From assembly GCA_001782235.1 (NCBI GenBank), contig MFOC01000003.1:1-45850 (forward strand): DNA of 45,850 nucleotides, given 5' to 3'. Below are positions 2,823 through 42,159 of the stretch, piece by piece. The DNA is from Candidatus Levybacteria bacterium RIFCSPHIGHO2_02_FULL_40_18. GTDB lineage: Bacteria > Patescibacteriota > Microgenomatia > Levybacterales > GWA1-39-11. The position numbers were made by a program, and so were the translations under genes. The notes below the pieces were generated by a model. That model did not search any database and was not told where the DNA came from. It saw only the letters and a program-made list of their open reading frames with translations. Positions within the stretch are counted from its first letter, which is position 1. Every line of letters starts with the position of its first letter.

Positions 2823-3626
2823 ATGGTAAGTTTGGACATGAGATTTTTTTCTGCGATTTCTTTCGCCCTAATACTTCTTTTGGCTTTTTACAGCCCGGCT
2901 CTGGCTCAAGAAACAGAAGTCTTGACTGGTACGGGTGTTGCAATTTCGCTTCCGATTGTTGATGAGAATATAAAAGATGGAAGTATAATTGCCTCAACTG
3001 ACTCAGGCTATAAAAAATCATCTTACGCTTATCAACCTTCGCTTTATGGAGTAATGACAAACACTCCCGCGCTGTTTCTTGAGAATGGAGATCCTCCCCC
3101 CAAAGACACATATCATCCGGTTATAACAACAGGCAAGGCGTACGTTTTAGTCTCGACAATAAATGGGTCGATTAAAAAAAATGATTTCATAACCTCATCG
3201 GAAACTCCGGGAGTCGGCCAAAAATCAAGCGCAAGCGGTTATGTTTTGGGGACTGCTCTTGAAGACTACACATCCTCCGATACTCGATCTGAGGGAAGGA
3301 TCTTGGCTTACATAAATCCCCATTTCAACGCTACGTTTATTGCCACGAGAGCCAATCTTCTTGAAAGCTTAAGAAATATTGCGGCCTCCCCCACCCTTGC
3401 GCCACTGACTACCTTTCGCTATATCATTGCGGCACTCATTGCGACAGCCTCATTCATACTTGGTTTTATACATTTTGGAAGAATAATAAGAACAGGCATT
3501 GAAGCATTGGGAAGAAACCCCCTTGCCTCGGTCTTTATTCAGGCCAGCATGCTTTTAAATGTTGCTTTAACTATTGGGGTAGTACTTGGAGGTATTGCCA
3601 TATCGTACTTGGTACTAGTCCTATGA
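2823..3626 (+). CDS. Secreted-domain protein with a C-terminal ATP synthase c-subunit-like TM hairpin that lacks the conserved carboxylate
   Basis: ORF track gives 2793-3626, but the 2793 ATG sits in the predicted -10 box, so ATG 2823 (or 2838) is preferred. Signal/TM segment FFSAISFALILLLAFYSPALA-QE is followed by a ~170-aa soluble domain. Then RTGIEALGRNPLASVFIQASMLLNVALTIGVVLGGIAISYLVL aligns by eye with F-type c subunits (Bacillus PS3 [36 protein letters not shown]). The R-N/Q-P loop, Q, M and VAL are all in register, but Thr-Ile replaces Val-Glu. Confidence 0.75.
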   Translation: MVSLDMRFFSAISFALILLLAFYSPALAQETEVLTGTGVAISLPIVDENIKDGSIIASTDSGYKKSSYAYQPSLYGVMTNTPALFLENGDPPPKDTYHPVITTGKAYVLVSTINGSIKKNDFITSSETPGVGQKSSASGYVLGTALEDYTSSDTRSEGRILAYINPHFNATFIATRANLLESLRNIAASPTLAPLTTFRYIIAALIATASFILGFIHFGRIIRTGIEALGRNPLASVFIQASMLLNVALTIGVVLGGIAISYLVLVL

Positions 3627-4060
3627 GAACTCAAAGCTCAAATCGCAAAACTCAAAATGAATCAAGAAGCATGAATCAAGAAGCAAGGAAAATAAGAAAT
3701 TTTACAGATTTGAACGCATGGAAAGAGGCTCATAGGCTGGTTTTATTTATCTATCGAATAACAAAGGACTTCCCTCGTGAAGAACTATTCGGACTAGTAA
3801 ATCAATTAAGACGTGCGGTTATTTCGATAACATCTAATATCGCTGAAGGATTTAGTAGGAGTTCTTATAAGGAGAAGTCTCAATTTTATTCGATGGCATT
3901 AGGCTCGCTAACTGAAGTTCAGAATCAGCTTATTGTATCAAGAGACTTAGGATACATAACAAAAAAGGATTTTGAAGAATTGGAAGATATAACTATTACA
4001 GTAAGCAAATTGCTTAATGGTCTTATTAAAAAATCTAAAACCATGATTCATAATTCATGA
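3623..4060 (+). CDS. Four-helix-bundle protein (23S rRNA intervening-sequence protein family)
   Basis: NFTDLNAWKEAHRLVL...ITSNIAEGFSRSSYKEKSQFYSMALGSLTEVQNQL is the family signature (PF05635/TIGR02436 type). In-frame ATG 3671 is an equally plausible start. Start and stop both lie inside the flanking inverted-repeat arms. Confidence 0.85.
   Translation: MRTQSSNRKTQNESRSMNQEARKIRNFTDLNAWKEAHRLVLFIYRITKDFPREELFGLVNQLRRAVISITSNIAEGFSRSSYKEKSQFYSMALGSLTEVQNQLIVSRDLGYITKKDFEELEDITITVSKLLNGLIKKSKTMIHNS
3637..3688. repeat. Left composite arm of the inverted repeat enclosing the four-helix-bundle gene
   Basis: CTCAAATCGCAAAACTC (3637-3653) is the reverse complement of 4075-4091 with 1 mismatch in 17. 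GAATCAAGAAGCATGAATCAAGAAGCAAGG (3659-3688) pairs with 4041-4070 at 24 of 30 positions (hand alignment). Confidence 0.7.
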
Positions 4061-4091
4061 TTCATGATTCTAACGAGTTTTGAGATTTGAG
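4041..4091. repeat. Right composite arm of the inverted repeat enclosing the four-helix-bundle gene
   Basis: CCATGATTCATAATTCATGATTCATGATTC (4041-4070), then TAAC, then GAGTTTTGAGATTTGAG (4075-4091). These are complementary to 3659-3688 and 3637-3653. Confidence 0.7.
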
Positions 4092-4131
4092 ATGTAGATT
4101 TGACATTTGATTTTTGACATTTGAGATAAAT

Positions 4132-4797
4132 ATGTCCGAAATATTTTTATATTATGCTCTTCTAACATCTGTTTTCCTCCTGTCAGGAGTTTTAATAGTT
4201 GTGATTCAATATCTTTTTAATGTTTTAAAAAAGAATAAGCTGTATCAAAAAGATGCGGTTCGTCACAGTCAAGAAATCATTTCACACGCAAATGAAAAAG
4301 CTAAACAGATAATATCTGAGGCGCAAGTTTTTTCAGACGAGGTCCGGCAAGGGAGTGATAAACTCATAGCAAGCCTTAAAGAATCTCAAAGAGAGGAACT
4401 TAAGAAGGCCGCAGACAGGCTTTTTGAAGAATATAAAGCTGCGCTGGAAGAAGTTTATAAAGAGAATATCAATATATTTAGAAATATATCAAAAGATATC
4501 GAAGAAAAGGCAGGTTTTGAAATTCGTGACTTTAAAGAGATTTTGGAAAAAGAAACAATCGAGTCCCAAAAGATTGTTGGTGAAAAAATAGAAACTGAAT
4601 ATCATGATGTACAAAAGGAGATTCAGGAGTACAAAAACCGCGAGCTTTTGAAGGTTCAGGAAAGCATTTATGGGATTGTACATAATGCCATTGAACTTGC
4701 AATCGGTAAATCGCTGGATCGACAAACCCAGGAGGAACTGGTAATGGAAGCTTTGAAAGAAGCCATCGAAAAACAAGAAACGTCAGAATCTAAATGA
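4132..4797 (+). CDS. atpF: F0F1 ATP synthase subunit b
   Basis: One N-terminal TM helix (IFLYYALLTSVFLLSGVLIVVI) followed by a long charged coiled coil. It sits immediately upstream of atpH-atpA. The ORF-track start at 4114 is a TTG inside the repeat arm, so ATG 4132 is preferred. Confidence 0.75.
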   Translation: MSEIFLYYALLTSVFLLSGVLIVVIQYLFNVLKKNKLYQKDAVRHSQEIISHANEKAKQIISEAQVFSDEVRQGSDKLIASLKESQREELKKAADRLFEEYKAALEEVYKENINIFRNISKDIEEKAGFEIRDFKEILEKETIESQKIVGEKIETEYHDVQKEIQEYKNRELLKVQESIYGIVHNAIELAIGKSLDRQTQEELVMEALKEAIEKQETSESK

Positions 4798-4926
4798 GAA
4801 TGGTTATTTGAAAATGGAAATTAGTAATGGAAGGAAGGAAATAGAAAATAGCTAAATAACACGAATTTCCAATATCTAATTTCTATTACCATTTTCTAAT
4901 TTCTTATAACCAATTTCTAAATATTA
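4798..4926. repeat. Low-complexity hairpin element (GGAAATT/AAAATGG word family) filling the atpF-atpH spacer
   Basis: Left half TTATTTGAAAATGGAAATTAGTAATGGAAGGAAGGAAATAGAAAATAG closely matches the reverse complement of 33745-33797. Right half CTAATTTCTATTACCATTTTCTAATTTCTTATAACCAATTTC is an imperfect complement. Related copies lie at 24056-24135, 32570-32697 and 33657-33800. Confidence 0.65.
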
Positions 4927-5382: not shown

Positions 5383-6863
5383 ATAATTTTGAAGACTATT
5401 TAAAAGAAATAGGAGAAATAGGATATGTTGAAGAGGTGGTTGGACCGATTGCTCAAGTGAGCGGTTTGCCGGGCGCAAAATGTGAAGAACTCGTGATGTT
5501 TGAAAGCGGGGAAATAGGTCAGGTCCTTTCTTTGTCCGAAGACTTTGTCGAAGTTCTAATATTTTCAAGAAACCCTATAAAGGTAGGCGTTAGGGCCGTC
5601 CGACTCAACAAGCCTTTTGAGATGCCGGTAGGACATGAATTGCTTGGGCAGATTATAGATCCTTTTGCACGGCCCTTTGACGAGACAAGGCCGGTAAAAA
5701 CCCCAAAAGACAGAAGAAATATTCTCGTTAAGGCCGCAGGAATCGACAAGCGAAGAACAATTAAAAGGCATTTAGTGACAGGTGTGACACTCGTTGACTT
5801 ATTAATACCAATCGGCTTTGGACAAAGAGAGCTTTTGATTGGAGACAGAAAAACCGGTAAGACAAATTTCCTCTTGGCCACAATTTTATCGCAGGCAAAA
5901 AGAGGAACTATCTGTATTTATGCTGTTATTGGCAAAAGAAAGATTGATATTAAAAAAATTGAAGACCTTTTTGTAAAGAATAAGGTCATGGATAACATTA
6001 TTATGATTGCAACAACATCTTTTGATCCGCAAGGATTAATCTATTTAACACCCTACTCCGCTATAACAATTGCGGAATATTTTCGAGACGCGGGAATAGA
6101 TACAATTTTAGTCATTGATGATCTATCAAATCATGCGAGGTTTTACAGAGAAATTTCACTTCTCGGCCGCCGTTTTCCGGGAAGAAATTCTTACCCTGCA
6201 GATATCTTTCACACACACGCACGGTTTATGGAAAGAGCCGGAAATTTTATAGTCGGCGACAAGGAGGTATCAATTACTGTGCTCCCGATAGTTGAAACAA
6301 ACCAGGGAGATCTCTCAGGCTACATTCAAACCAATCTCATGTCAATGACCGACGGCCACCTTTATTTTGATCAAGGCCTCTTTTCCCAAGGGATTCGCCC
6401 CGCGATTAATCCCTTCATATCGGTGACTCGTGTTGGTCAGCAAACCCAATCGTCTCTCCAGCGAAGCATTGCACGAGAGCTAAGATCTTTCCTTGTCTTG
6501 TATCAAAAAACAAAGCGATTTGTCCACTTTGGTGAAGAGATTAGCCAATCAATAAAGACAATTCTCGCAACGGGGGATAATCTTACCCGCTTCTTTCACC
6601 AACCTCCTTCAAGCATTACCTCAGAAAACATACAGATTTTTCTCTTTGCTTTGCTTTGGTCAAATTTCTTTGGAGATGAACCGTTTGAAAAAATAAAGCA
6701 GGATATGGATAAATGGAGAGTAATGTATGAGGAAAATAAAGCTTTTCACGATAACATAGATAATATGATTGCAACATCATCCCATTTAAATGAGCTGCTC
6801 TTGAAAATCAAGGGAATCCAAACCAAAAACAATCCAGACCAGAAGATCGTCTTAACAAGCTGA
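5379..6863 (+). CDS. atpA: F0F1 ATP synthase subunit alpha
   Basis: Walker A GDRKTGKT, then ICIYAVIGKR, LPIVETNQGDLSGYIQTNLMSMTDGHLYF and RPAINPFISVTRVG. Confidence 0.95.
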   Translation: MNNFEDYLKEIGEIGYVEEVVGPIAQVSGLPGAKCEELVMFESGEIGQVLSLSEDFVEVLIFSRNPIKVGVRAVRLNKPFEMPVGHELLGQIIDPFARPFDETRPVKTPKDRRNILVKAAGIDKRRTIKRHLVTGVTLVDLLIPIGFGQRELLIGDRKTGKTNFLLATILSQAKRGTICIYAVIGKRKIDIKKIEDLFVKNKVMDNIIMIATTSFDPQGLIYLTPYSAITIAEYFRDAGIDTILVIDDLSNHARFYREISLLGRRFPGRNSYPADIFHTHARFMERAGNFIVGDKEVSITVLPIVETNQGDLSGYIQTNLMSMTDGHLYFDQGLFSQGIRPAINPFISVTRVGQQTQSSLQRSIARELRSFLVLYQKTKRFVHFGEEISQSIKTILATGDNLTRFFHQPPSSITSENIQIFLFALLWSNFFGDEPFEKIKQDMDKWRVMYEENKAFHDNIDNMIATSSHLNELLLKIKGIQTKNNPDQKIVLTS

Positions 6864-6926
6864 ATCAAGAAGCAAGAATCAAGAAGCAGGGGGGAACCAT
6901 GATTCATGATTCAAGATTCATGATTC
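6862..6926. repeat. Cargo-less hairpin with the same arms as the four-helix-bundle cassette
   Basis: GAATCAAGAAGCAAGAATCAAGAAGCAGG (6862-6890), loop GGGGAA, then CCATGATTCATGATTCAAGATTCATGATTC (6897-6926). About 23 of 30 positions are complementary. The left arm is almost identical to 3659-3688 and to the reverse complement of 36639-36668. Confidence 0.75.
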
Positions 6927-6933
6927 AAAACAT

Positions 6934-7800: not shown

Positions 7801-9764
<1,964 letters not shown>

Positions 9765-14624: not shown

Positions 14625-16508
14625 ATGGCATTCCATAAAAAAATATTTTCTCTGTATCATCAAACCGGAGCCTTACTCATAGTCTTGATAGTTTTAACAG
14701 GCTCAATATTCTATGTAATTTTGGGCGGTCAAGGTGAACAAAAATCACAACCCCAACCAATATCAGAAATTACAAACAAAGAACAATTTGTTGAAATTGC
14801 GGAAACTTCCGTGCCGGGCACCTTTGAATCAGGCGCGTCATGTGCGGGAGGAGCTGATGGAAACTACAATGTGGTAAAGAATGGCATTACTCTCCACGTT
14901 TGCGAAGCATCTCAAGGAGAAGTTTGCAGAATTTATAGCACAGGTGCCGAATGCGTTCAAACAATTAGCAGTGGCGGAAGTGATGGATGCACACAGCATT
15001 CTCAATGTGTCGTTGGATTTTGTCTTGACAGCTTCCAGGAAAACTTGCCCAACTATTGTTTCAGCGGAGGAGGCGGTCCAGGATCGGAATGCAGAGGTTA
15101 CGACGGTTTAGATATAGATATTATCTGTAGATCGGGTAATTGCGATAGTGGGTATTGTGTCGGCGACGCACCTCAACCGACTCAACCAGGTGGCGGCGGT
15201 GATGCTTGTGCAGGGACTCCCGGTTATAACACTACAAATATGGCATGTATTAACTATTTGGGAAATGACTATTTCCCTGAAGGAGACGCATCAAGTCCTG
15301 CAGCCTGCCAAACTTCCTGCCAGAATGATTCAAATTGCGCCGCTTGGACTTGGGTAAGGCCAGGTGTTCAGGGATCGAGCGCTCATTGCTATAAAAAGAA
15401 TCCAAAACCTGCCTCTGTTGCAAATAGTCCTGCAGACTGCTGCATTTCTGGAGCAAAGACGGGCGGAGCTCCTATACCAACACAGCCAGGTGGATACCAA
15501 CCTGTTCCCACAAACATCCCTGTACCCACCCAGCAGCCGGGTGACGGGAACATCCAATATAGTCTTTCACTAAATGTATCGCCTACACAAGTTAAGCCAG
15601 GTGAAAGCGTAACCCTTTGTTATGCATTAACTCCTCAAAATATTCCTTTTCATGTCCGGCTTCTTTCATCATCAGGGGGAACATTTACATTAGTGTCGGA
15701 GTGGGACGATAATGGTATTGGAGGAGGAGACTGCATCGGCGTTAAAATCAATGCTGGCGCAACTCCCGGCTCAAGACAACTAAAAGTAGAAGCAATAGTT
15801 AATAATTCAAAAGTAGCCGAAGAAACAGTTTCTATAACGATTACAGGCGGCACAGGAGGCAGTTCCCCGACTGCGACCCCCACTCCAACGCCGACAAAAA
15901 CTCCAACGCCCACTTTAACACCCACTCTAACTAACACTCCTACTCCGACAGCAAGCCCTACGCCTACTTCCCAGCAGCCTAGTCCAACTCCAACCCTTTC
16001 TCCGAACCAAAGCTCAATCGCGCTCACTATAAAACTAGCCGGAATCGGTTCAAATACATCTCTTGGACAAAATAATAATCCCGTGAAAACCAGCCTCCCT
16101 GTTGAAATTCAGGTTTTTAATTTAAATAGTCAGAAAATTAAAGATGTGGGGGGCAATCTGATTTTTGATTCTGCCACGGCAAGCTTCAAAGGTACTGTCT
16201 TCCTTGGATCGGATCTCACAGAATCAGCATATGTGTTTAAAGTAAGGCTAAATAACGCTCTATGGAAAGCGATAACTTCACAAATTACACCCGGACAAAC
16301 AACTAACCTACCTGAGAAAGAGCTTATTTCAGGAGATCTTGATCAAAATAATGAGCTTAACTTGCTTGATTACAACGCGCTTATCTCCTGCTACGGCTCC
16401 AAATCATGTTCAAATAAGGAAAAGGCGGATCTCAATCTTGACGGGAAAGTCGACGAGCTCGACTTAAATATCTTCTACGCCGCCCTTGCGAAGCGAACAG
16501 GCGACTAA
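14625..16508 (+). CDS. Secreted/anchored protein: TM anchor, Cys-rich region, PAN/Apple-like domain, Ig-like domain, PT linker, Ig-like module plus dockerin-like C-terminus
   Basis: PAN-like [31 protein letters not shown]. Linker [35 protein letters not shown]-terminal [22 protein letters not shown]...[17 protein letters not shown]. Confidence 0.8.
16332..16497 (+). repeat. 166-bp perfect direct repeat, copy 1 (dockerin-like coding segment)
   Basis: Identical base for base to 18066-18231 in my hand alignment. Flanks diverge immediately on both sides. Confidence 0.9.
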
Positions 16509-16556: not shown

Positions 16557-18242
16557 GTGGGTCTTATAACCTTTAACATTCCGAGTCGCAAGAATATTAT
16601 TGCCGCAATTGTTGTTTTTTTAAGTCTAATTGGACTGCCTGTGATAATTTGGCAAATTGGAAGGACGCAGGATATCAGACAGAAGGCGGCGGAAACTAGC
16701 GCTCTTGACTCATCGCCCCAAATTATCGTCATTGACGGCAAGTGCTCTCAAGATAATGGTTTGGTTGTTGTCCAGGAAGGAGCCATCATTGAAAACTATC
16801 TAATTAAGAACGTGCGTGAGGCGGGGATCAGGGTGGAGGCTCCGAACGTTACCATTCGCAATGTCGAGATAGTAAATCCAGACTGCGATGGTTCTGGCGA
16901 TCAATTTGCCGCAGGAGTTGCCTGCTGGCAACCGTGTACGGGCCTGAAAGTTTTAGACTCTAAAATCACTGGCAACTCTGCCAGACGTGGTAATGGCATA
17001 TGGATGAAAAATACTAATTCCTCCCATGGCATAGGTAATCATTATATTGCCCGTAACGTAATCTCCTCTGTTTGGGATGGAATTGGATCTGAGGCGGAAG
17101 GTGATGCATGGGGAGGCTTCGTTGCCAACTCACTTGTGGAAGCCAATCGAATCACCAACTGTGCCGACGACGGTATACAGATGGAAGGCCGCAATGAGAA
17201 CATTACAGTGCGCCGCAATGAGATTTCCGGGTGTGGCATAGGAATTGCCTACGCGCCCAGCTTAGTTGGGCCGCTTTATATAGAAAACAACTATATCCAT
17301 AATCTAATAACGGGCGACTACGGACAACAGGCCTGTTACAAAGTTGGTAGCAACTCTGCAGGGGACATATTTATTTCCGGCGAGCGTTGTTTTGGGCCCG
17401 GTGACGGCATCAAGCAAACCAATTCAGGATCGCTGGGACGCGTTGTGAGTCATAATAACTGCTATATTGTAACACGGTACGTTGTTGAATATACGTCAGT
17501 GCCACAAGCTCCTTCTGGCACTAGCCTTAATTTTGAAGGTGATACAATGTTCTCCTCCGACCCTTCCAGATTTGTGAAGTGGAATGGTAGTGCGATTAGC
17601 TTTGAGCAATTTAACACACTGCCTCAAGTTGGGACAGAAGTACTGAGTCAAAATTGCCCAAATGATAATCCCATAATAACTCCTTCACCAACGCTTACCC
17701 CAATATTCATACCTAGCCCAACTCCTACGGTCGCTGCCAATCAAGCTTCAATTTTGTTCGACATCAAACTTGTTGGTATTGGATCAAATACTGTCATTGG
17801 ACAAAATCCGAATCCTATAAGATCATCTATTCCTCTTGAGGTCCAGATACTATCTACTCAAAATCAGCCAGTATTGGATACATCGGGGTTGCTTACATAC
17901 AACAGTAGCACATCAAGCTTTCAAGGCAATGTAAATCTTGGATCAAGTCTTTCTCAAGGAGCATACATTATCAAGATTAGGTTAAATAATACTCTTCGTC
18001 GTTCTTTAATCACTCAGGTAAACCTGGGGCAAACAACTGGTTTGGCTCCGCAGGAACTTATTCTGGGAGATCTTGATCAAAATAATGAGCTTAACTTGCT
18101 TGATTACAACGCGCTTATCTCCTGCTACGGCTCCAAATCATGTTCAAATAAGGAAAAGGCGGATCTCAATCTTGACGGGAAAGTCGACGAGCTCGACTTA
18201 AATATCTTCTACGCCGCCCTTGCGAAGCGAATCGGTGACTAG
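16557..18242 (+). CDS. Secreted/anchored right-handed parallel beta-helix (pectate-lyase-fold) protein with Ig-like module plus dockerin-like C-terminus
   Basis: Repetitive beta-helix coils: NVTIRNVEIVN, ITNCADDGIQMEGRNENITVRRNEISGCGIGI, IENNYIHN. GTG start (the ATG two bases upstream is out of frame). The C-terminal ~55 aa are identical to the previous protein. Confidence 0.75.
   Translation: MGLITFNIPSRKNIIAAIVVFLSLIGLPVIIWQIGRTQDIRQKAAETSALDSSPQIIVIDGKCSQDNGLVVVQEGAIIENYLIKNVREAGIRVEAPNVTIRNVEIVNPDCDGSGDQFAAGVACWQPCTGLKVLDSKITGNSARRGNGIWMKNTNSSHGIGNHYIARNVISSVWDGIGSEAEGDAWGGFVANSLVEANRITNCADDGIQMEGRNENITVRRNEISGCGIGIAYAPSLVGPLYIENNYIHNLITGDYGQQACYKVGSNSAGDIFISGERCFGPGDGIKQTNSGSLGRVVSHNNCYIVTRYVVEYTSVPQAPSGTSLNFEGDTMFSSDPSRFVKWNGSAISFEQFNTLPQVGTEVLSQNCPNDNPIITPSPTLTPIFIPSPTPTVAANQASILFDIKLVGIGSNTVIGQNPNPIRSSIPLEVQILSTQNQPVLDTSGLLTYNSSTSSFQGNVNLGSSLSQGAYIIKIRLNNTLRRSLITQVNLGQTTGLAPQELILGDLDQNNELNLLDYNALISCYGSKSCSNKEKADLNLDGKVDELDLNIFYAALAKRIGD
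18066..18231 (+). repeat. 166-bp perfect direct repeat, copy 2
   Basis: Identical to 16332-16497. Confidence 0.9.
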
Positions 18243-18247: not shown

Positions 18248-20143
18248 CTATGGAGCTCCGGGTACCGGCCCGCCGTTTCCGTGGGGACCGATGGGACAGG
18301 TGTTATTTACATCTGCGGGCTTTGCGCCCGATACGCCCCCCGTGTAGTAATAACAAAGCTCATGAGTCCCATTTTTCAGCCAGCATTTTCCACTTGGCCC
18401 CTGATATCCAGGCTTAACCCACGTCCAAGCAAGACACTCCTGGTTAAGTTGGCAGTCTGATTGGCACATTTGAGGGCTTGGAGAATCATAGCCTGAGATG
18501 TCGCCGCCCGGATAATTAAGGTTGTCTGCCATACCTGAGGTTATTGAGTAGCCTCCACCTGCGCCGCCTCCCTCCGATGTACCCCCGCAACTACCACCAA
18601 GAGGCTGCCAATTGTTCTGGGTTTGACAGCGCCAATACTGATGATCGGATCCGCAAACTGCCTCACCGCAAACTCCTGTGTAGTTTTGATTAACTGTTCC
18701 ATCTGAGCCAATAACCCATCCGTTAGGACAGGTGCACGAAGCGTCCTTACCGCCGCCTGTGTCCCCTCCGCCTCCGCCTGTACCGTTATTATTTTCTCTC
18801 TCATCCCCTGGGTTGTTTGTAGCCGGCGGGTTTTGGCAAGTCAGAACCGGAAGAATACTCTGCGCTATCCAAGCTCGCTCAACACTGTCAAAACCTTGTC
18901 CGCCGCATAAAGCCATAACAGTTCCCGAACTTCCGCTTGGACCGCAATTGGGCTGGAAAGGAGCGTAGAATGAAGTACTCGTGGCACATCCGGGGTATGC
19001 TCCGGTTGATCCGGCATCACGCCAAAATGCCTCTCCCGCGGGATTATCCGAACAATTGCTCCTAAGCCCCGGATTAAGACTTGTCTGACTTACATATCCT
19101 GCCCCTTGATTATAGTAGCGGTCGTAGAGTTGCCCAATCATATGGCCCAAAAACTCGTGCTTGCCTCGCCAGATAAGATTTCCCGAATCAATTGTGTTGA
19201 TGACCGCGGGACCTGATCCGATCACCGAAGCGCTTGTGTTCCCACCCTGGACAAGAACTATTGCGCCAGCAGCGCCAGTTTCTGCTCTTGCCGATTGGAT
19301 TACGCCGTTAAGCGCTGGCGTGTTAAAACATGCAACAATATTACTTGTGCAGCCTGTGGGGGTTGTATTTTCATAGATTTTAAAATCAAAGTAATTTGAT
19401 GCGGCTCCGTATGGGTCAACGGAAAGGCTCAAGATAATATTATTTGCGTCGTTTCTGAAAGCAGCCATGTTCGAATACCCATCGCTAATTATCGCGATCG
19501 GAATCCGGCTGCAAGTTTGCGCAATTTGCGAAGTATTTCTTACTTTTCCTTCCTGCACAGGGTAGGAAGGAACCGGAATCTCAAAAACTATCTGCCCGTT
19601 TTTAAGAAGACTCACATTTTTTACTTTTGCATCAAACGGCACATAGATATAAGAAGCTATTTTGTTGGGGAAATCGGTGTTTTTAGCTGCCTCTCCGGGT
19701 CCAGGATGAGAAAAAATATGTTCGTTTACCGAAACCGGGAGTGAAGAGATCACCGATCCCTTATCGCCATTGAAAACAATCTTGTAAGAAGAACCTGAGG
19801 CAAGCCTTGCGTCGTACTCTATGCGCTCTGATAATACGCTGAATTCTTTTAGCTCGAGTCGCCCGCTCTGACCGTCATATTCCACAAGCATTTTAAAGGT
19901 GCTAGGAACAAAGGGCTTAAAACTTTTTATCTTCAGGCCATCTCCACCCTGATCTCCCTCCTCCTGGGAGCTTTTGCCGCTGCCGCCCGGAGTTACAACT
20001 TTTGACATTATTCCGAACAAAATGCCTCCAAGGATCAAAATAACAAATAAAAACGCTGCTATTTGAAGGGGCGAATGACGATCTGATATAAAATCTTTCA
20101 CAATAAAAGCGTAGTTAAATATTTCCTTAATGTCAATGTACAT
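18248..20143 (-). CDS. Membrane-anchored exoprotein: M64 (IgA-peptidase)-like domain with atypical HEFLGH motif, Gly/Cys-rich region, C-terminal PAN/Apple-like domain
   Basis: TM helix IAAFLFVILILGGILFGIM. IPIAIISDGYSN...AIVLVQGGNTSASVIG...KHEFLGHMIGQLYDRYYN resembles peptidase M64. PAN-like CQSDCQLNQECLAWTWVKPGYQGPSGKCWLKNG. Confidence 0.65.
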   Translation of the reverse strand: MYIDIKEIFNYAFIVKDFISDRHSPLQIAAFLFVILILGGILFGIMSKVVTPGGSGKSSQEEGDQGGDGLKIKSFKPFVPSTFKMLVEYDGQSGRLELKEFSVLSERIEYDARLASGSSYKIVFNGDKGSVISSLPVSVNEHIFSHPGPGEAAKNTDFPNKIASYIYVPFDAKVKNVSLLKNGQIVFEIPVPSYPVQEGKVRNTSQIAQTCSRIPIAIISDGYSNMAAFRNDANNIILSLSVDPYGAASNYFDFKIYENTTPTGCTSNIVACFNTPALNGVIQSARAETGAAGAIVLVQGGNTSASVIGSGPAVINTIDSGNLIWRGKHEFLGHMIGQLYDRYYNQGAGYVSQTSLNPGLRSNCSDNPAGEAFWRDAGSTGAYPGCATSTSFYAPFQPNCGPSGSSGTVMALCGGQGFDSVERAWIAQSILPVLTCQNPPATNNPGDERENNNGTGGGGGDTGGGKDASCTCPNGWVIGSDGTVNQNYTGVCGEAVCGSDHQYWRCQTQNNWQPLGGSCGGTSEGGGAGGGYSITSGMADNLNYPGGDISGYDSPSPQMCQSDCQLNQECLAWTWVKPGYQGPSGKCWLKNGTHELCYYYTGGVSGAKPADVNNTCPIGPHGNGGPVPGAP

Positions 20144-20960
20144 TCCCCTTTCGCACGCCCTTAAAATACTTTATACTTACCTTGTGGAGTTGCCTTATGC
20201 ATTAATATTGGGAGTCGTAGAGGGTATCACCGAGTTTCTTCCTATCTCATCTACGGGACATTTGATTTTTGTTTCAAATCTTTTAAGAATCGAGCAGACC
20301 GAGTTTGTGAAAACTTTTGAGATAGCTATCCAATCTGGCGCTATTTTGGCAGTGGTTTTTCTTTACTTTCGAACCGTTTTTGGCAATTTTGAATTAATCA
20401 AGCGGATTCTTGTTGCTTTTGTTCCAACCGCAATAATAGGATTTACACTATACAAATTCATCAAACAATATCTAATCGGCAGTTCCGAAGTAGTTCTACT
20501 CTCTTTATTCCTGGGAGGAATAGTTTTGATCGCCGTCGAGTTCATCTTCAAAGCCAAAAGCCAAAAGCTAACAGCTAAAAGCCAACTTTCCTATGAAAAG
20601 GCCTTCGTAATTGGGCTTTTCCAATCCGTCTCGATGATTCCAGGCATCAGCCGTGCCGCGGCAACAATTATTGGTGGGCTTCTTGTTGGTTTGACAAGAA
20701 AAGAGGCAGTCGAATTTTCATTTTTGTTGGCAGTTCCGACCATGCTCGCCGCAACCGCCCTTGATCTCAATCAATCGAATTTCTTACAACTTACATCTTA
20801 CCAACTTACAGCCCTTACGGCCGGCTTTATCACTTCCTTTGCCGTTGCGCTAATTTCAATCAAATGGCTCCTCAAATACATTCAGGCCAATACCTTCATC
20901 CCTTTTGGAATCTACCGAATTATAATCTCTATTCTTTATTTCTTTTTGATATTAAAATGA
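20130..20960 (+). CDS. uppP: Undecaprenyl-diphosphate phosphatase
   Basis: VEGITEFLPISSTGHLI and SMIPGISRAAATIIGGL are BacA/UppP signatures. The 20130 ATG overlaps the divergent gene's start, so in-frame GTG 20184 (VELPYALILGVVEG...) is a likely true start. Confidence 0.9.
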   Translation: MSMYIPLSHALKILYTYLVELPYALILGVVEGITEFLPISSTGHLIFVSNLLRIEQTEFVKTFEIAIQSGAILAVVFLYFRTVFGNFELIKRILVAFVPTAIIGFTLYKFIKQYLIGSSEVVLLSLFLGGIVLIAVEFIFKAKSQKLTAKSQLSYEKAFVIGLFQSVSMIPGISRAAATIIGGLLVGLTRKEAVEFSFLLAVPTMLAATALDLNQSNFLQLTSYQLTALTAGFITSFAVALISIKWLLKYIQANTFIPFGIYRIIISILYFFLILK

Positions 20961-32551: not shown

Positions 32552-32569
32552 AGTCTAACTTGTGTTCTA

Positions 32570-32697
32570 GAAAATAGTTGTAGGAAATTGGACAATGGTT
32601 ATAGAAATAGGATATTGAAAATAAGTATTTAAAAGCTATTTTCTATTTTCAATTTTCCATTACTAATTTCTATTTTCTAATAACCAATTTCTTGTTT
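32570..32697. repeat. Hairpin element (GGAAATTGG word family) separating the two comEC ORFs
   Basis: Left arm GGAAATTGGACAATGGTTATAGAAATAGGATATTGAAAATAAG. Right arm CTATTTTCTATTTTCAATTTTCCATTACTAATTTCTATTTTCTAATAACCAATTTC. The upstream ORF's last codons and stop (..KKLVIRK*) lie inside the right arm. Confidence 0.65.
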
Positions 32698-33656: not shown

Positions 33657-33800
33657 GGGAAATTGGTTGTTAGAAATTAGAAAATGGTTATAGAAATTAG
33701 ATACTAGAAATTGGGGTTATTTATTATTATTTAACTATTTTCTATTTTCCACACTCCATTACTAATTTCCATTTTCAAATAACTATTTTCAAATACTCTA
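33657..33800. repeat. Hairpin element (GGAAATTGG word family) between comEA and comEC
   Basis: Left arm GGAAATTGGTTGTTAGAAATTAGAAAATGGTTATAGAAATTAGATACTAGAAATTGG. Right arm CTATTTTCTATTTTCCACACTCCATTACTAATTTCCATTTTCAAATAACTATTTTC. Confidence 0.65.
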
Positions 33801-35570: not shown

Positions 35571-35584
35571 TGTGCGATATTATA

Positions 35585-38317
35585 TCAAATAACAAAATTT
35601 ATAATGCGGCCGGGGATGTAAATGACGTTTTTCACGGATTTTCCTGCAACGTATTTTTCGACTTCTTTTCGCGCGAGAGATTCGACCTCATTCTTTTTTC
35701 CAATGTTCGAACTATCAATCGTGACTTCTCCTCGTCTTTTTCCATTCACCTGAACCACAACGGTAACTTTTTCTTGGACTAAATATTTTTCATCATATTT
35801 TGGCCACTCACTAAAGTGAATGGAATCACGAATCATGAATTTTGAATCATGGTTAATTTCCCCTTGATTCTTGCTTCTTGCTTCATGCTTCATTTCTTGC
35901 CATACCTCCTCCGCCAAATGTGGCGCGAACGGTGCGAAAAGCCTGAGATATGATCTCGCGGTTTGCTGCGACCATGATTTATTGTTGTCCGAAATGAAGT
36001 TGTAAAATTCCATTAGCCTTGCTATTGCCGTATTATAAGAGAATTCTTCAATGTCAAGCGTTACTTTTTTAATGGTCTTATTTATCATTTGAAGTGTATC
36101 TTGATTGTCCTCCCCGAACTCTTTTGTGGTAAACAAGTTCCAAACCCTGCGCACGAAACGGTGCATTCCTTCGATTCCGGTATCGCGAAAATCTCCACCT
36201 TGAGAAAATGGGCCAAGAAACATAAGATAAAGCCTTAAAGTATCGGCTCCGAATTTTTCAATGTAAATGTCAGGAACAACTATGTTGCCACGCGACTTGC
36301 TCATTTTGGCACCCTCTGAGATAATAAGTCCGTGCGCAAAAAAGCGTGGGAAAGGCTCGGCGAAAGGCAAAGCTAGATCATGGATCTTAGATCTTAGATT
36401 TTGGATATTGATTTTCGATCTATTATCTATGATCGATAATCTATCATCTAAATTTAGATCATGCAATACCATCGCTATAAAACGAACATATAAAAGATGT
36501 AGCACCGAATGCTCTGCTCCGCCAATGTAAATTGCTATGGGACACCACCGCCTTACGATCTTCAGATCGTAAGGAATGTCCAATTTCAAATTTCCAATTT
36601 CCAATGGTTGATCCGATTTGATGTCTTTAGAACTAGTTCCTTGCTTCTTGATTCTTGCTTCTTGATTCTGAATGCTCAAATAGCGCAGGTAGTACCAGGA
36701 TGAGTCTAAGAAGGTATCGGAAACATCCGTTTCACGTTTTGCAGAACTATTACAGGATGGGCACTTTGTTTGGTAGAACTCCGGATGGTTTGCTAAAGGA
36801 GACGTTCCTGTTCCTTCCGGCCGCCAATCTTTTACGTCAGGGAGCTCGACCGGCAACTGTTCTTCCGGTACTGCTCGAATCATATGTTCCCTCCCGTCAA
36901 TTATTGCGTAATCCCTGCCTTCGATCAGTTTTGAATTTTGAGTTTTGAGTTTTGAGTTTCCCCAGCATTTACGACAGTAAATGATGGGAATCGGCGGGCC
37001 CCAATATCTTTGGCGTGAAATCAACCAATCCCGCAGATGATAAGTTGTTTCTGGTCCTCCGGCTCTGTACCTCTCAAGCCACTGGGCTATTTTCTTCTTT
37101 GCTTCGGCCGAACTCAAACCTGAAAACTCACCTGAATCAAATAAAACCCCGTCCCCGGTGAAACACTCCTCAAGACTATCGATTCGCTTATCTTTTTTTT
37201 TGTCTCCTGTATGCAACGTAGGCTTAAGTCGAATACCATACTTTTTGGCAAATTCAGTATCGCGCTCGTCATGCGCATCTCCAAACAAAGCACCTGTACC
37301 GTAGCCCATTACCGCGTAATCTGCGATCCAAATAGGAATTTTCTCTTTGTTAACCGGGTTTATACCATATAGACCGGAAAATACGCCAGTTTTTTCTTTG
37401 TTCTCGATCCTCTCCTTATCCGATTTCTTTTTCGCCTTTTCAATATATTGCTGGACAAACTTATCTCTGATTGACGTTGAAATCGGGTGCTCAGGAGCAA
37501 GCACTAAAAAGGTGGCGCCGAACAAAGTATCTGCTCGTGTAGTAAACACCTCTATCTCCTTAATTTTTAACTTTGAATTTTGAACTTTGAACTTGATTCG
37601 GGAACCCTCTGATTTTCCTATCCACTGGCGCTGGGCAATCTTTATCTTTTCCGGCCAATCAATCTGGTTCAAACCATTAAGAAGTGCATCAGCATATGCG
37701 GTAATTTTAAAGAACCATTGTTCGAGGTCGCGCTTCTCGACAACTGACGAACAACGCTCGCAGCGCCCGTCGATTACTTGTTCATCCGCTAAAACGGTTT
37801 TATCCGAAGGGCACCAATTGACCCGGGCTTTTTTGCGGTAAGCCAACCCTTTTTTAAACATTTGTACAAATATCCACTGTGTCCATCTATAATAATCCGG
37901 ATCATAAGTCTCTAAAGTCCTTGTCCAGTCATAAGCGTTTCCGGTTGCCCGAAGCTGTCTATAAAAATTCTTTTCTGAAATTTTGGCCTGCTCTCTCGGG
38001 TGGCGGCCAACCGCAAGCGCATAGTTCTCAGAATGTATGCCAAACCCGTCAAGTCCGATCGGCTCAAAAACATCCTTACCCTTCATTCTCATGTAGCGAC
38101 CGTGAATATCTGCTCCTGTAAAAGCATACATATTCCCTACATGTAGGCCCTCTGCCGAAGGATATGGAAACATCATTAGTGTGTAGTAGGGATTTTTAGC
38201 ATTTTTAAGATCAGGCGAAAAAGTTTTATTTTCCTCCCAATATTTCTGCCATTTGACCTCAATCTCTTGCGGTTTATACTGCGCCTTCCTATTCATAGCA
38301 CAATTATACCTAATCAT
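35585..38317 (-). CDS. leuS: Leucyl-tRNA synthetase with several low-complexity in-frame insertions
   Basis: PYPSAEGLHVGN (HIGH region), KMSKS, WCPSDKTVLADEQV, VFTTRADTLFGATF, RDWLISRQRYWGPPIP. The likely true start is MNRKAQYKPQEIEVKWQKYW, with its ATG at complement 38294-38296. Confidence 0.95.
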   Translation of the reverse strand: MIRYNCAMNRKAQYKPQEIEVKWQKYWEENKTFSPDLKNAKNPYYTLMMFPYPSAEGLHVGNMYAFTGADIHGRYMRMKGKDVFEPIGLDGFGIHSENYALAVGRHPREQAKISEKNFYRQLRATGNAYDWTRTLETYDPDYYRWTQWIFVQMFKKGLAYRKKARVNWCPSDKTVLADEQVIDGRCERCSSVVEKRDLEQWFFKITAYADALLNGLNQIDWPEKIKIAQRQWIGKSEGSRIKFKVQNSKLKIKEIEVFTTRADTLFGATFLVLAPEHPISTSIRDKFVQQYIEKAKKKSDKERIENKEKTGVFSGLYGINPVNKEKIPIWIADYAVMGYGTGALFGDAHDERDTEFAKKYGIRLKPTLHTGDKKKDKRIDSLEECFTGDGVLFDSGEFSGLSSAEAKKKIAQWLERYRAGGPETTYHLRDWLISRQRYWGPPIPIIYCRKCWGNSKLKTQNSKLIEGRDYAIIDGREHMIRAVPEEQLPVELPDVKDWRPEGTGTSPLANHPEFYQTKCPSCNSSAKRETDVSDTFLDSSWYYLRYLSIQNQEARIKKQGTSSKDIKSDQPLEIGNLKLDIPYDLKIVRRWCPIAIYIGGAEHSVLHLLYVRFIAMVLHDLNLDDRLSIIDNRSKINIQNLRSKIHDLALPFAEPFPRFFAHGLIISEGAKMSKSRGNIVVPDIYIEKFGADTLRLYLMFLGPFSQGGDFRDTGIEGMHRFVRRVWNLFTTKEFGEDNQDTLQMINKTIKKVTLDIEEFSYNTAIARLMEFYNFISDNNKSWSQQTARSYLRLFAPFAPHLAEEVWQEMKHEARSKNQGEINHDSKFMIRDSIHFSEWPKYDEKYLVQEKVTVVVQVNGKRRGEVTIDSSNIGKKNEVESLARKEVEKYVAGKSVKNVIYIPGRIINFVI

Positions 38318-38352
38318 ATCCCTAGTAGCTAGTCACTAGTTGCTAATTTAAG

Positions 38353-38361
38353 TGGTATAAT
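38353..38361 (+). promoter_or_regulatory. Extended -10 promoter TGGTATAAT (cassette B)
   Basis: Same nonamer and same spacing to the conserved leader as at 26427-26435. Confidence 0.6.
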
Positions 38362-38375
38362 CAGGTCAAGTTCAG

Positions 38376-38498
38376 AAGGAACTTTCCCAAACTCGCATAA
38401 AAGCTGTGTGAGAACTGGCTATTGGCTTTTGACGCTTTGCTTCTGGCTTATGCTAACAGCTAAAGGCTAAATGCTAACAGCTATTTGGGATCGCACCT
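38376..38498 (+). promoter_or_regulatory. Conserved 123-nt 5' leader, copy B
   Basis: 122 of 123 positions identical to 26449-26571. The internal ATG (ATGCTAACAGC...) hits a stop after 8 codons here, so the leader is non-coding. Confidence 0.6.
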
Positions 38499-38538
38499 GA
38501 AAAACTAACCACGGACAAAATCAAGGAGGTTTCGCCGG

Positions 38539-41163: not shown

Positions 41164-42159
41164 ATGAAAAAGGTTCTCTGGCTTTTGGCTTTTGGCTTTT
41201 GGCTTTTGGCCCTTATGTTTCCGATTGTCTATTCTATTCCCTTAAGCGTAAGCGCTCAAAAAAACAAAGGCCAGTTCTCGCTTGGTATTTATCCGCCGAT
41301 TTTTGAAATCAACGCGCAAGCTCCGGCAAATATAGACGCCAAAATTAATATCCAAAATTTAAGCGAGTTCAGCCAGAACCTATCAATCACCTTCAAGTCT
41401 TTCAGGCCGGACGAAAAGGGAGACGGAACCCTTAGGTATGAAGCTGCCCCCCCAACCCTTCAGAAAATTAAGGTTTACGATGGAGAAAATCCTTTGGAAC
41501 AAATCACGCTTGATCCCTTTGAGTCCCGTGATCTTGCTCTTAAGATGGATATCGAGTCTAATACGCCCGGGGGTGATTATTACTTTTCAGTAATCTTTTT
41601 GTCGCAAGAGAATCAAGACTCAAAGATTTCTCAATCTAAAATAACCGGAGGGATAGGCACTAATGTAATACTGTCAGTTGGCAGGAAAGGCCCTTTCAGG
41701 GGACAAATTAAGGAGTTCAGCATCCCCCGCCTTGTAACTCACGGCCCCGTACCTATTACTTTACTACTTGCGAATAATAGCAGTTACTATTTAAATCCGA
41801 CAGGCAGAATAATTATTCAAGATATGTTTCACAGAGAAGCGGGACAAATTAATATTTTACCTCAATATGTTCTTGCTAATTCTTCTCGCTTTATGAAAGA
41901 TTCTGATCAAGCCTCTCCAACCTTCGAGCGTGCGGCTCAAATCGAAAGGTTAGAGAGCGACCATCCTGTTTTAATCTGGCCCGAAACGTTTCTCTTTGGA
42001 CTATACACAGCCTATGCCCATATTAAACTATCCGAGAATGGACCGGTATTTGAAACTAAGGCTAGTTTTATCGCCATACCGGCTTATATGCTCTTTGCTA
42101 TTTCATTCTTGGCCTTTGTCCTTATCGGAATATACCTTCGCGTGAAAAAGAAAATCTAA
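41164..42159 (+). CDS. Surface protein with C-terminal TM anchor, DUF916/DUF3324-like (partner of WxL proteins in Firmicutes)
   Basis: Signal peptide. FSLGIYPPIFEINAQAPANIDAKINIQNLSEFSQNLSITF resembles the start of DUF916. C-terminal AIPAYMLFAISFLAFVLIGIYLRVKKKI is an anchor. A heptanucleotide repeat lies in the signal-peptide codons. Confidence 0.5.
   Translation: MKKVLWLLAFGFWLLALMFPIVYSIPLSVSAQKNKGQFSLGIYPPIFEINAQAPANIDAKINIQNLSEFSQNLSITFKSFRPDEKGDGTLRYEAAPPTLQKIKVYDGENPLEQITLDPFESRDLALKMDIESNTPGGDYYFSVIFLSQENQDSKISQSKITGGIGTNVILSVGRKGPFRGQIKEFSIPRLVTHGPVPITLLLANNSSYYLNPTGRIIIQDMFHREAGQINILPQYVLANSSRFMKDSDQASPTFERAAQIERLESDHPVLIWPETFLFGLYTAYAHIKLSENGPVFETKASFIAIPAYMLFAISFLAFVLIGIYLRVKKKI

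What the first reader, a model, noticed from the sequence alone, without database searches (positions are those of the whole stretch)
35585..38317. LeuRS carries at least five in-frame insertions built from the same words as the intergenic hairpins
All sequences below are given in the sense of the minus strand. (a) 35823-35891 is a complete family-A hairpin of 69 nt (23 codons), encoding MKHEARSKNQGEINHDSKFMIRD. It replaces a short loop in the conserved APHLAEEVW....WP.YDE region. (b) 36639-36668 is an exact GAATCAAGAAGCAAGAATCAAGAAGCAAGG 30-mer (QNQEARIKKQG), followed by GGAAATTGGAAATTTGAAATTGG (36575-36600, EIGNLKLD). (c) 36927-36960 is a CTCAAAACTCAAAA array (NSKLKTQNSKL). (d) 37577-37608 is a TCAAAGTTCAAAATTCAAAG array (KFKVQNSKLKIK). 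(e) 36370-36460 holds GATCTAAGATC words (NRSKINIQNLRSKIHD). An essential enzyme thus tolerates translated copies of elements that elsewhere flank IVS-type genes. The open question is whether they are translated or removed at the RNA level.
Basis: partly seen in the sequence, partly recalled or inferred. Interest (0 to 1): 0.65.

Follow-up and report, generated by a model that had tools for sequence, protein, structure and literature searches.

The report
Seven-base repeat arrays translated inside LeuRS
The leucyl-tRNA synthetase gene of this uncultured Levybacteria (CPR) bacterium carries several short arrays and hairpins of 7-base repeats, the same kind that fill its intergenic regions. They sit in frame in loops and one beta-hairpin, are almost certainly translated, and recur in about half of related LeuRS genes.

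Summary
The 910-aa LeuRS ORF (35585-38317, minus strand) contains six period-7 tandem arrays at five sites. Period 7 is the only enriched tandem period in the window.

Site a is a complete copy of the intergenic family-A hairpin. Site b1 is a 30-mer that differs by 1 nt from two intergenic copies, one of which flanks a PF05635 (23S-rRNA-IVS-protein) gene. Site c matches the outer arm of that same element.

Site d is mis-located by about 15 nt and is a replacement (+3 aa), not a net insertion. The words of sites d and e have no clear intergenic twin in this window.

All segments are absent from T. thermophilus LeuRS.

Among 120 Levybacteria-type LeuRS proteins, 56 carry peptides that only heptanucleotide-periodic DNA would encode. 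There are 119 such segments at about 11 hot spots. Shuffled controls gave 0-1, and 77 other bacterial LeuRS gave 4, all from other CPR.

Indirect evidence favours translation:
- The ORF is unbroken and every indel is a multiple of 3.
- Array units are stop-free in the sense frame.
- A stop codon present in both intergenic copies is replaced by a lysine codon in LeuRS.
- Sequence flanking the arrays evolves as ordinary coding DNA.
- No intron or RNA family matches the region.

No RNA data exist. I rate this a new variant of a known kind (Rickettsia RPE-like, cyanobacterial STRR-like).

The parts
35585..38317 (-). leuS ORF, 910 aa. HIGH-type (HVGN) and KMSKS motifs are intact.
   Evidence: core pN 0.18 against pS 0.73 versus the closest orthologue
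35825..35893 (-). Site a: complete family-A hairpin of 69 nt (23 codons, aa 809-831) in the anticodon-binding domain loop. Its right arm has AAA where both intergenic copies have an in-frame TGA or TAA.
   Evidence: mean pLDDT of the 10-residue blocks 811-830 is 54-75; absent from all relatives aligned
36638..36670 (-). Site b, arm 1: (GAATCAAGAAGCAA)x2 array, encoding QNQEARIKKQG
36602..36637 (-). Site b, core (TSSKDIKSDQPL). It is shared with P0003, P0004, P0005, P0008 and P0012 and evolves as coding sequence.
   Evidence: pS 0.53, pN 0.19
36578..36601 (-). Site b, arm 2: (GGAAATT)-type array, encoding EIGNLKLD, built from family-B words
   Evidence: (I25); pLDDT below 50 for aa 552-573
36926..36958 (-). 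Site c: (CTCAAAA)n array, encoding NSKLKTQNSKL, directly after the CxxC zinc knuckle
   Evidence: (I22)
36875..36925 (-). Tail of site c (aa 465-481, IEGRDYAIIDGREHMIR). This is a clade-specific beta-hairpin, not repeat-derived, and is under ordinary purifying selection.
   Evidence: (pS 0.93, pN 0.21)
37559..37594 (-). Site d: (AGTTCAA)n array, encoding KFKVQNSKLKIK. It replaces the native beta-hairpin at the entry to the editing domain (+3 aa versus T. thermophilus).
   Evidence: strands E235-245 and E254-259; mean pLDDT of blocks 231-260 is 89-94
36377..36451 (-). Site e: (GATNNNN)n/(ATCNNNN)n arrays forming a weak hairpin, at the position of the leucine-specific domain. It is shared with P0004.
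6861..6929 (+). Reference copy: gene-less family-A hairpin between atpA and atpG
3623..4127 (+). PF05635 (23S rRNA IVS protein) gene 3623-4060, nested between heptamer arms. Left arms are 3628-3690 and right arms are 4039-4127.
4796..4919 (+). Family-B intergenic hairpin. Further copies lie at 24059-24124, 32568-32691 and 33659-33791.

Best explanation
Levybacteria genomes are seeded with modules of about 30 nt, each 4-5 tandem copies of a heptanucleotide. The modules are often paired into hairpins and normally sit at gene boundaries.

Copies also arise or land inside leuS. There they survive only in about eleven permissive sites, mostly surface loops. They survive only if the net length change is a multiple of 3 and the sense frame has no stop codon.

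They are then transcribed and translated as part of LeuRS. The products are short K/N/Q/S/E/I-rich segments. Most are flexible surface loops (sites a, b, e). One is a beta-hairpin replacement (site d) and one is a short helix beside the zinc knuckle (site c).

Shown here: the repeat identity, the in-frame state, the hot spots, the recurrence across relatives, the stop-codon filter and the coding-type evolution of the flanks.

Inferred: translation itself, and the mechanism of origin. The origin could be replication slippage or template switching, recombination with other copies, or an unidentified mobilising enzyme.
For: 1. Repeat identity. The 30-mer of b1 is 29/30 identical to two intergenic copies, with 0 expected by chance. 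Site a aligns over both arms with the intergenic hairpin.

2. Unbroken frame. The ORF is uninterrupted, and all indels among four orthologues at the five sites are multiples of 3.

3. Stop-codon filter. In the four Levybacteria loci compared, 14 of 16 LeuRS arrays have consensus units that are stop-free in the sense frame. Only 19 of 62 strand-readings of non-LeuRS arrays are stop-free (Fisher P = 9e-5).

4. Repaired stop. Read in the LeuRS frame, the family-A right arm is AAC CAT GAT TCA TGA or TAA in both intergenic copies. In LeuRS it is AAC CAT GAT TCA AAA.

5. Flanking sequence is translated. The non-repeat parts of the same inserts evolve as coding DNA. The c tail has pS 0.93 and pN 0.21, and the b core has pS 0.53 and pN 0.19. 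The frame therefore runs through the arrays.

6. Recurrence. 56 of 120 Levybacteria-type LeuRS carry 119 heptamer-compatible peptides at about 11 hot spots. Shuffles gave 0-1, and 77 other LeuRS gave 4, all CPR. This was verified at the DNA level in L001, L002, L004, L007, L085 and L086.

7. Structure model. The AlphaFold model has mean pLDDT 85 and pTM 0.82. Site b falls below 50, the 10-residue blocks covering sites e and a average 54-75, and site d sits in a confident beta-hairpin.

8. The gene is functional. Core pN/pS is about 0.07 and the catalytic motifs are intact.

9. No known RNA element. Rfam finds nothing in 35500-38520 even at E<=1.

10. Not an assembly artefact. At least 12 independent metagenome runs hold 93-98% of the gene's sampled words, and no indel variants appear.
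Against: There is no direct evidence of translation. No RNA run holds the gene and no proteomics data were available.

Synonymous sites inside arrays are far more conserved than in the rest of the gene (pS 0.11-0.21 against 0.74-0.84). Simple 'neutral translated filler' does not predict this. It needs either within-array homogenisation, under which every unit position is read in all three codon phases, or a function at the nucleic-acid level.

The narrow size distribution (median 30-32 nt) is not what plain slippage gives.

No mobilising enzyme was found in the window.
Confidence: 0.8

Rival explanations
1. The arrays and hairpins are removed from the leuS transcript, by IVS-like or intron-like excision with religation, or are bypassed by the ribosome. 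The mature enzyme would then lack them.
For: Sites a and e can fold into hairpins (z = -2.95 and -2.4). The same hairpin family encloses a PF05635 gene of the type found in excised rRNA intervening sequences. Deleting site a would give a loop length seen in relatives.
Against: Excision would remove any need for 3n length or freedom from stops, yet both hold at every site and in every orthologue. An in-frame stop has been specifically replaced.

Sites b, c and d have no secondary structure (z = +0.3, -0.2 and +0.9). Site d encodes a structural beta-hairpin that the enzyme needs.

No intron or other RNA family was found. From established knowledge, RNase III excision of rRNA IVSs does not religate the RNA, which would destroy an mRNA.
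Confidence: 0.04
2. The arrays are kept in leuS because they work as nucleic-acid signals, for example as binding sites for a protein that reads heptad repeats, or as mRNA stability, processing or translation-pausing sites. Their translation would be a tolerated by-product.
For: Conservation is at the nucleotide level. Codons that lie in arrays in both species have pS 0.11-0.21 and roughly equal pN of 0.07-0.14, while core pS is saturated. For WIN versus L001, the binomial P is 1.6e-8.

Module size is stereotyped at 30-34 nt, both inside and outside genes. LeuRS holds 6/8, 7/9 and 7/10 of all arrays lying deep inside ORFs in three loci.
Against: Orthologous intergenic hairpins keep their position but change their units between the same species, so unit sequence is not generally conserved.

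The low pS can also be explained without any such function. If arrays are homogenised, every unit position is read in all three codon phases and no site is silent.

Many relatives lack arrays at each site, so no single array is essential.
Confidence: 0.13
3. The segments are ordinary lineage-specific low-complexity loops, or an assembly artefact, and their likeness to intergenic repeats is coincidental.
For: The inserts are K/N/Q-rich, as loops in AT-rich genomes often are. Assembly unitigs do break at the arrays.
Against: A 30-mer matches at 29/30 with 0 expected by chance. Only period 7 is enriched. Shuffled proteins give 0-1 hits against 119.

The same gene sequence is held by at least 12 independent runs. 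Arrays occur at the same sites in orthologues from unrelated metagenomes.
Confidence: 0.02

Closest known systems
Rickettsia palindromic elements (RPE). I know the original descriptions (Ogata and colleagues) only from memory. The review PMC10969869 summarises them.
   Same: Both are dispersed repeat families with intergenic and intragenic copies. Both are inserted in frame into unrelated, including essential, protein genes without breaking the ORF. In both cases the insert is thought to be translated at sites compatible with the protein fold. Site a, and weakly site e, are palindromic like RPEs.
   Different: RPEs are about 100-150 bp, are not built of tandem units, and each family encodes a conserved peptide. 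Here the modules are about 30 nt of tandem heptanucleotides and most (b, c, d) are not palindromic. Units differ between species at the same site. One gene accumulates up to 7 modules. There is no sequence similarity, and the phylum differs (CPR versus Alphaproteobacteria).
Cyanobacterial STRR and other heptanucleotide repeats, including TAACTGA repeats of Beggiatoaceae, cyanobacteria and Bacteroidetes (PMC4679880) and GGGAATC/GGGGAYT repeats (PMC4692102)
   Same: Both are tandem heptanucleotide units in short arrays of 2-6 or more copies, highly dispersed and mostly close to gene ends. Units with stops in all frames are excluded from ORF interiors, and occasional copies inside ORFs are read through (PMC4679880, section 15).
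   Different: In those organisms intragenic copies are few, lie mostly at protein termini and mostly fall in hypothetical proteins. Here they sit in internal loops of an essential housekeeping enzyme. They recur at orthologous hot spots in about half of the relatives and use many different units per genome. My literature searches found no report of this in CPR.
Borg tandem repeats that create disordered regions in proteins (PMC9879509; title and abstract seen only)
   Same: Both are rapidly turning-over tandem DNA repeats inside ORFs that add low-complexity, probably disordered, protein segments.
   Different: Here the unit length is 7, so only the whole array, not the unit, preserves the frame, and each unit is read in all three phases. 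My recollection that Borg intragenic units are divisible by 3 is memory only; I did not read the paper's text. Here the host is a bacterial chromosome and an essential gene.
23S rRNA intervening sequences carrying PF05635 genes
   Same: The same hairpin family (family A) encloses a PF05635 gene at 3623-4060, in the way the long stems of rRNA IVSs enclose such ORFs.
   Different: The leuS copies carry no ORF of their own, lie in an mRNA, and show every sign of selection for read-through. IVS excision does not religate the RNA.

Membership tests
RPE-type in-frame palindromic repeats | A dispersed repeat family with both intergenic and intragenic copies in the same genome | tested here: met
   Sites a, b1 and c match 6861-6929, 3659-3690 and 3634-3658. 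Not shown for d and e.
RPE-type in-frame palindromic repeats | The insertion keeps the host ORF open (3n length, no stop) | tested here: met
RPE-type in-frame palindromic repeats | Palindromic element of about 100-150 bp encoding a family-specific conserved peptide | tested here: not met
   Modules are 24-69 nt. Only a and e fold as hairpins. Peptides vary with unit and phase.
RPE-type in-frame palindromic repeats | The element is retained in the mRNA and protein | not testable with these tools
   No RNA runs hold the gene. There is only indirect evidence.
STRR-like heptanucleotide tandem repeats | Tandem unit of 7 nt, in short arrays dispersed through the genome | tested here: met
   126 of about 243 TRF rows in nine loci are period 7, with median length 30-32 nt.
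STRR-like heptanucleotide tandem repeats | Belongs to the named cyanobacterial STRR unit families, in a cyanobacterial host | tested here: not met
   The host is Levybacteria/Patescibacteria, judged from the source names of the closest LeuRS relatives. The units are different and numerous.
MITE | Terminal inverted repeats plus target-site duplication | tested here: inconclusive
   Site a has inverted arms. Reading its flanks against the intergenic copy showed no direct duplication. No systematic search for empty sites was possible.
Self-splicing intron, intein, or IVS removal | A recognisable ribozyme or intron RNA family, an intein domain, or an rRNA context | tested here: not met
   Rfam finds nothing at E<=1. 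Pfam shows only LeuRS domains. The inserts are 8-29 aa, too short for an intein.
Bacterial-type LeuRS | Class Ia catalytic core with HIGH and KMSKS motifs, a CP1 editing domain and an anticodon-binding domain | tested here: met

The most novel reading that the evidence does not exclude
The ~30-nt heptad arrays may be functional nucleic-acid modules rather than junk. One possibility is that a multimeric protein reads four to five heptads. A purely speculative candidate is the Avd-like PF05635 four-helix-bundle protein whose gene sits inside such a hairpin. Another possibility is that a dedicated, still unknown mechanism writes the arrays.

On either reading, the arrays would be kept under nucleotide-level selection even inside an essential coding sequence. 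leuS would then carry an overlapping second code, with possible roles in mRNA processing, pausing, or regulation of LeuRS.
Probability: 0.13. Interest if true: 0.85.

Novelty: new variant of a known kind. Interest (0 to 1): 0.6.

Why it matters
If correct, CPR bacteria with very small genomes still let a repeat class colonise an essential translation enzyme, repeatedly and at defined loops. This gives a natural map of the insertion-tolerant sites of LeuRS.

It is also a clean example of non-triplet (7-nt) repeats evolving inside a reading frame, where every repeat position is read in all three codon phases.

It helps explain why these LeuRS proteins vary so much in length (810-1063 aa here). 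It also warns that such segments in MAG-derived proteins are repeat-derived and not assembly errors.

Finally, it links the poorly understood heptanucleotide repeats of cyanobacteria, Beggiatoaceae and Bacteroidetes to a further phylum. It provides testable material, in the stereotyped 30-nt modules and the association with PF05635 genes, for working out what heptad repeats do.

Tried and rejected
- RNA evidence: the look-up of sequencing runs with kind rna returned nothing, so excision could not be tested directly.
- Population variation: Logan contigs of four DNA runs showed no indels in the arrays. They showed only that the array words are up to about 150-fold over-covered, meaning they are common in many other loci or genomes of those communities. 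Contigs cannot exclude rare length variants.
- Genome survey: the genome-contig scan with the single protein returned mostly distant LeuRS and only 3 Levybacteria loci. I used it as a negative control instead of the intended Levybacteria survey.
- Known RNA families and introns: none were found.
- Mobilising enzyme: no transposase, reverse transcriptase or RAYT was found among the window ORFs scanned. A PF01797 Y1 transposase lies near leuS only in L085.
- Literature: five searches found no description of heptanucleotide arrays in CPR genes.
- 'Site b is a hairpin': rejected, because the fold is no better than shuffles (z = +0.29).
- 'Arrays decay by point mutation': rejected. At orthologous sites they are either nearly identical or replaced wholesale by another periodic unit.
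Full report
WHAT IS THERE

The window comes from a Candidatus Levybacteria (Patescibacteria/CPR) genome. The closest LeuRS relatives that carry a source name are named Levybacteria or Levyibacteriota, and a few are labelled Patescibacteria or Roizmanbacteria. Gene order is conserved with Levybacteria contigs: LeuRS, a 376-aa ORF, ComEA, a split ComEC, and a response regulator/kinase pair.

The ORF 35585..38317 on the minus strand encodes a 910-aa bacterial-type LeuRS. Its catalytic motifs are intact and its core is under strong purifying selection. Against the nearest orthologue, pN is 0.18 and pS is 0.73, which is saturated.

CHECK OF THE OBSERVATION

Tandem Repeats Finder reports period-7 arrays of 4.1-7 copies inside the ORF at 35863-35891, 36374-36450, 36575-36605, 36640-36669, 36927-36959 and 37562-37594. 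About 25 more lie at gene boundaries elsewhere in the window.

A stringent periodicity scan finds 9 segments for period 7, none for periods 5, 6, 8 and 10, and 2 for period 9. Shuffled sequence gives 0.05. With a looser threshold, 6 of 18 arrays lie in LeuRS, which is 6% of the window (P = 4e-4).

The coordinates are right for b, c and e, 2 nt off for a, and about 15 nt off for d.

- Site a (35825-35893) aligns over both arms with the 69-nt intergenic hairpin between atpA and atpG at 6861-6929. It folds in the same way, with z = -2.95 against -4.9.
- Site b1 (36639-36668) is a 30-mer with one-mismatch copies at 6862-6891 and 3659-3688. None is expected by chance.
- Site c resembles the outer left arm at 3634-3658 (pair I22).
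- Site b2 resembles the family-B hairpins (pair I25).
- For d and e I found the same architecture, but no convincing intergenic twin in this window. The d words are nevertheless massively over-covered in the source metagenomes.

The 'IVS-type gene' is real. ORF 3623-4060 matches PF05635 at E = 3.6e-38. It sits between heptamer arms, which supply its first ~28 codons and its stop codon.

ARE THEY INSERTIONS?

Against T. thermophilus LeuRS (PDB 1h3n), the query has the following extra segments:
- 27 residues after the CxxC knuckle (aa 452-481, site c plus a tail).
- 27 residues between the SSWYYLRY motif and the IGG.EH motif (aa 552-580, site b).
- About 19 residues in the anticodon-binding domain (site a).
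- A 42-residue stretch where the 70-residue leucine-specific domain would be. Site e lies within it.
- Only 3 residues at site d, where the array replaces the native beta-hairpin (ILFPVEGKEVRIPVF becomes IKFKVQNSKLKIKEIEVF).

I aligned 20 and then 120 Levybacteria-type LeuRS, ranging from 810 to 1063 aa. Every site is a length-variable hot spot:
- Site a is unique to this genome.
- Site b has a conserved core (SSKDIKSxQ) shared by six relatives, flanked by arms whose heptamer units differ by species.
- Site c is shared with P0002 and P0003 only.
- Site d is shared with many relatives.
- Site e is shared with P0004.

Other lineages carry other repeat-derived strings at the same places, such as LNSFQDLGS, ILRYAQNDK and STRFARSG.

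A WIDER PATTERN

I scanned the 120 proteins for 9-residue peptides that a perfectly heptanucleotide-periodic DNA could encode, allowing at most 1 mismatch.
- 56 proteins carry 119 such segments.
- Composition-matched shuffles gave 0-1.
- 77 LeuRS from other bacteria gave 4, all from other CPR.
- Typical peptides are EFKIQNSKFKIE, KIKNQKSKIKNQ, LEIGNWKLEIGN, ISNFQFPISN and KVQSAKCKVQS.
- They cluster at about 11 positions. In this protein's numbering these are 182, 245-254, 285, 451-481, 554-586, 644, 730-742, 776-781, 810-829 and 869-871.

DNA of six further orthologues confirms the arrays. One Levybacteria leuS (L085) has seven near-perfect arrays of 29-40 nt.

In three loci, LeuRS holds 6/8, 7/9 and 7/10 of all arrays that lie deeper than 60 nt inside any long ORF.

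Array length is stereotyped. The median is 32 nt inside LeuRS and 30 nt elsewhere, and most arrays are 30-34 nt.

TRANSLATED OR REMOVED?

No RNA data exist, so the argument is indirect.

1. The ORF is unbroken, and every indel between four orthologues at the five sites is a multiple of 3.

2. Because 7 and 3 are coprime, an array is read in all three phases. Only units with no stop in any phase can persist in a coding region. In the four Levybacteria loci compared, 14 of 16 LeuRS arrays have such units in the sense strand. Only 19 of 62 strand-readings of non-LeuRS arrays do (P = 9e-5). In fact 15 of 31 non-LeuRS units have stops on both strands, against 13% expected.

3. The right arm of family A reads AAC CAT GAT TCA TGA (or TAA) in both intergenic copies. 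In LeuRS the same arm reads AAC CAT GAT TCA AAA.

4. Units that are stop-free on both strands occur in both orientations in LeuRS. An example is GGAAATT giving LEIGNW, and AATTTCC giving ISNFQFP.

5. The non-repeat parts of the inserts evolve as ordinary coding sequence. The c tail has pS 0.93 and pN 0.21, and the b core includes a TCG-to-AGT serine switch. The frame is therefore read through the arrays.

6. Site d encodes a beta-hairpin that the fold needs.

7. Sites b, c and d have no RNA structure, and no Rfam family matches the region even at E<=1.

8. From established knowledge, RNase III excision of rRNA IVSs leaves fragments unjoined. That would destroy an mRNA.

I therefore put translation at about 0.8 and RNA-level removal at about 0.04.

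STRUCTURE

The AlphaFold2 model, built with the 120-sequence alignment, has mean pLDDT 85.3 and pTM 0.82.
- Site b (aa 552-573): pLDDT below 50.
- Site e: the 10-residue blocks 621-650 average 54-67.
- Site a: the blocks 811-830 average 54-75.
- Site c: moderately confident, with short helices followed by a beta-hairpin formed by the tail.
- Site d: high confidence, with strands 235-245 and 254-259.

HOW THE ARRAYS EVOLVE

At orthologous sites the period is kept while the unit can change wholesale. At site c the units are (CTCAAAA)n here, (TTCAAAG)n in P0003 and (YYCAGAG)n in P0002.

Where two species share a unit, the arrays are far more alike than the surrounding gene. Codons lying in arrays in both species have pS 0.11-0.21 and pN 0.07-0.14. 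The core has pS 0.74-0.84. For WIN versus L001, P = 1.6e-8.

Orthologous intergenic hairpins (ComEA|ComEC, ComEC|MBL, and upstream of leuS) keep their position and architecture but have different units in each species. Unit conservation is therefore specific to the coding copies.

My inference is as follows. If arrays are homogenised by slippage or conversion, each unit position is read as codon position 1, 2 and 3, so no change is silent. The arrays would then evolve at the protein (pN) rate. A nucleic-acid-level function is the alternative, and I cannot exclude it.

COMPARISON WITH KNOWN SYSTEMS

The closest functional analogue is the Rickettsia palindromic element. These are dispersed repeats inserted in frame into many genes, including essential ones (review PMC10969869). 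The present modules are much shorter, tandem-heptamer based, mostly non-palindromic, and unrelated in sequence.

The closest structural analogues are cyanobacterial STRRs and the TAACTGA and GGGAATC heptamer repeats (PMC4679880, PMC4692102). Those are mostly intergenic. The rare intragenic copies lie at protein termini or in hypothetical proteins.

Borg tandem repeats (PMC9879509) also create disordered protein regions. I recall that their intragenic units are divisible by 3, but I saw only the title and abstract of that paper.

I found no report of heptanucleotide arrays in CPR genes. This is absence from the searchable library only.

VERDICT

The feature is real and well beyond chance. It is best read as repeat DNA that has colonised, and is translated within, tolerant sites of an essential enzyme. 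It is a new variant of a known kind.

The open points are direct proof of translation, the origin of the stereotyped ~30-nt modules, why LeuRS is the preferred host, and whether the nucleotide-level conservation reflects function.

Noticed in passing
window 20548-20585: An (AAAGCCA)n heptamer array lies in frame in the middle of the BacA/UppP gene 20130..20960 (PF02673). It encodes FKAKSQKLTAKSQL. This is a second conserved gene with a translated array.
   Followed up: partly
window 41177-41211: A perfect (TGGCTTT)x4.6 array forms codons 5-16 of ORF 41164..42159. It encodes the hydrophobic stretch LWLLAFGFWLLAL, which looks like a signal peptide or membrane anchor built from a repeat.
   Followed up: no
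window 3623-4127 and 7801-8241: The ATP synthase operon holds two small intruder genes. One is a PF05635 (23S rRNA IVS protein) gene nested between heptamer arms, which supply its N-terminal ~28 codons and its stop codon. The other is a PF13366 PD-(D/E)XK nuclease gene between atpG and the next large ORF.
   Followed up: partly
window 26449-26582 and 38376-38509: A 134-nt segment is repeated at 96% identity. Each copy contains (TGGCTTT)n and (GCTAAAA)n arrays. One copy lies about 60 nt upstream of the leuS start codon.
   Followed up: no
window 16293-16507 and 18027-18241: The 3' ends of two adjacent large secreted-protein ORFs (14625..16508 and 16557..18242) share 215 nt at 92% identity. Both ORFs have a Dockerin_1 C-terminal domain.
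   Followed up: no
all Levybacteria loci (WIN, L001, L002, L004, L085): Arrays outside LeuRS are strongly enriched for units with stop codons on both strands: 15 of 31 against 13% expected (P = 2e-6). This suggests that they block read-through at gene ends.
   Followed up: partly
L085 5024-5701: A PF01797 (Y1/IS200-type) transposase gene lies 2.3 kb upstream of a leuS that carries seven arrays. It is a conceivable mobiliser of hairpin repeats. None was found in the window.
   Followed up: no
proteins P0009-P0110: Some Levybacteria LeuRS of 950-1063 aa carry whole extra Pfam domains (NUDIX PF00293, alpha/beta-hydrolase PF00561/PF06821). The enzyme therefore also tolerates domain-sized insertions or fusions in this lineage.
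   Followed up: no
window 42392-45850 (runs off the end); L001 490-5373; L003 1866-6377: A conserved giant ORF next to the leuS neighbourhood combines phage-integrase SAM-like N-terminal domains with a Peptidase_S74 domain. It too contains a heptamer array (45604-45626).
   Followed up: no
window 35816-35919, 36544-36647, 36856-36959, 37480-37687: In four metagenome runs the array words reach 5-150 times the depth of the rest of the gene. Contigs carrying them run on into many different flanks. The same heptad words are therefore common in many other loci or genomes of these communities.
   Followed up: partly
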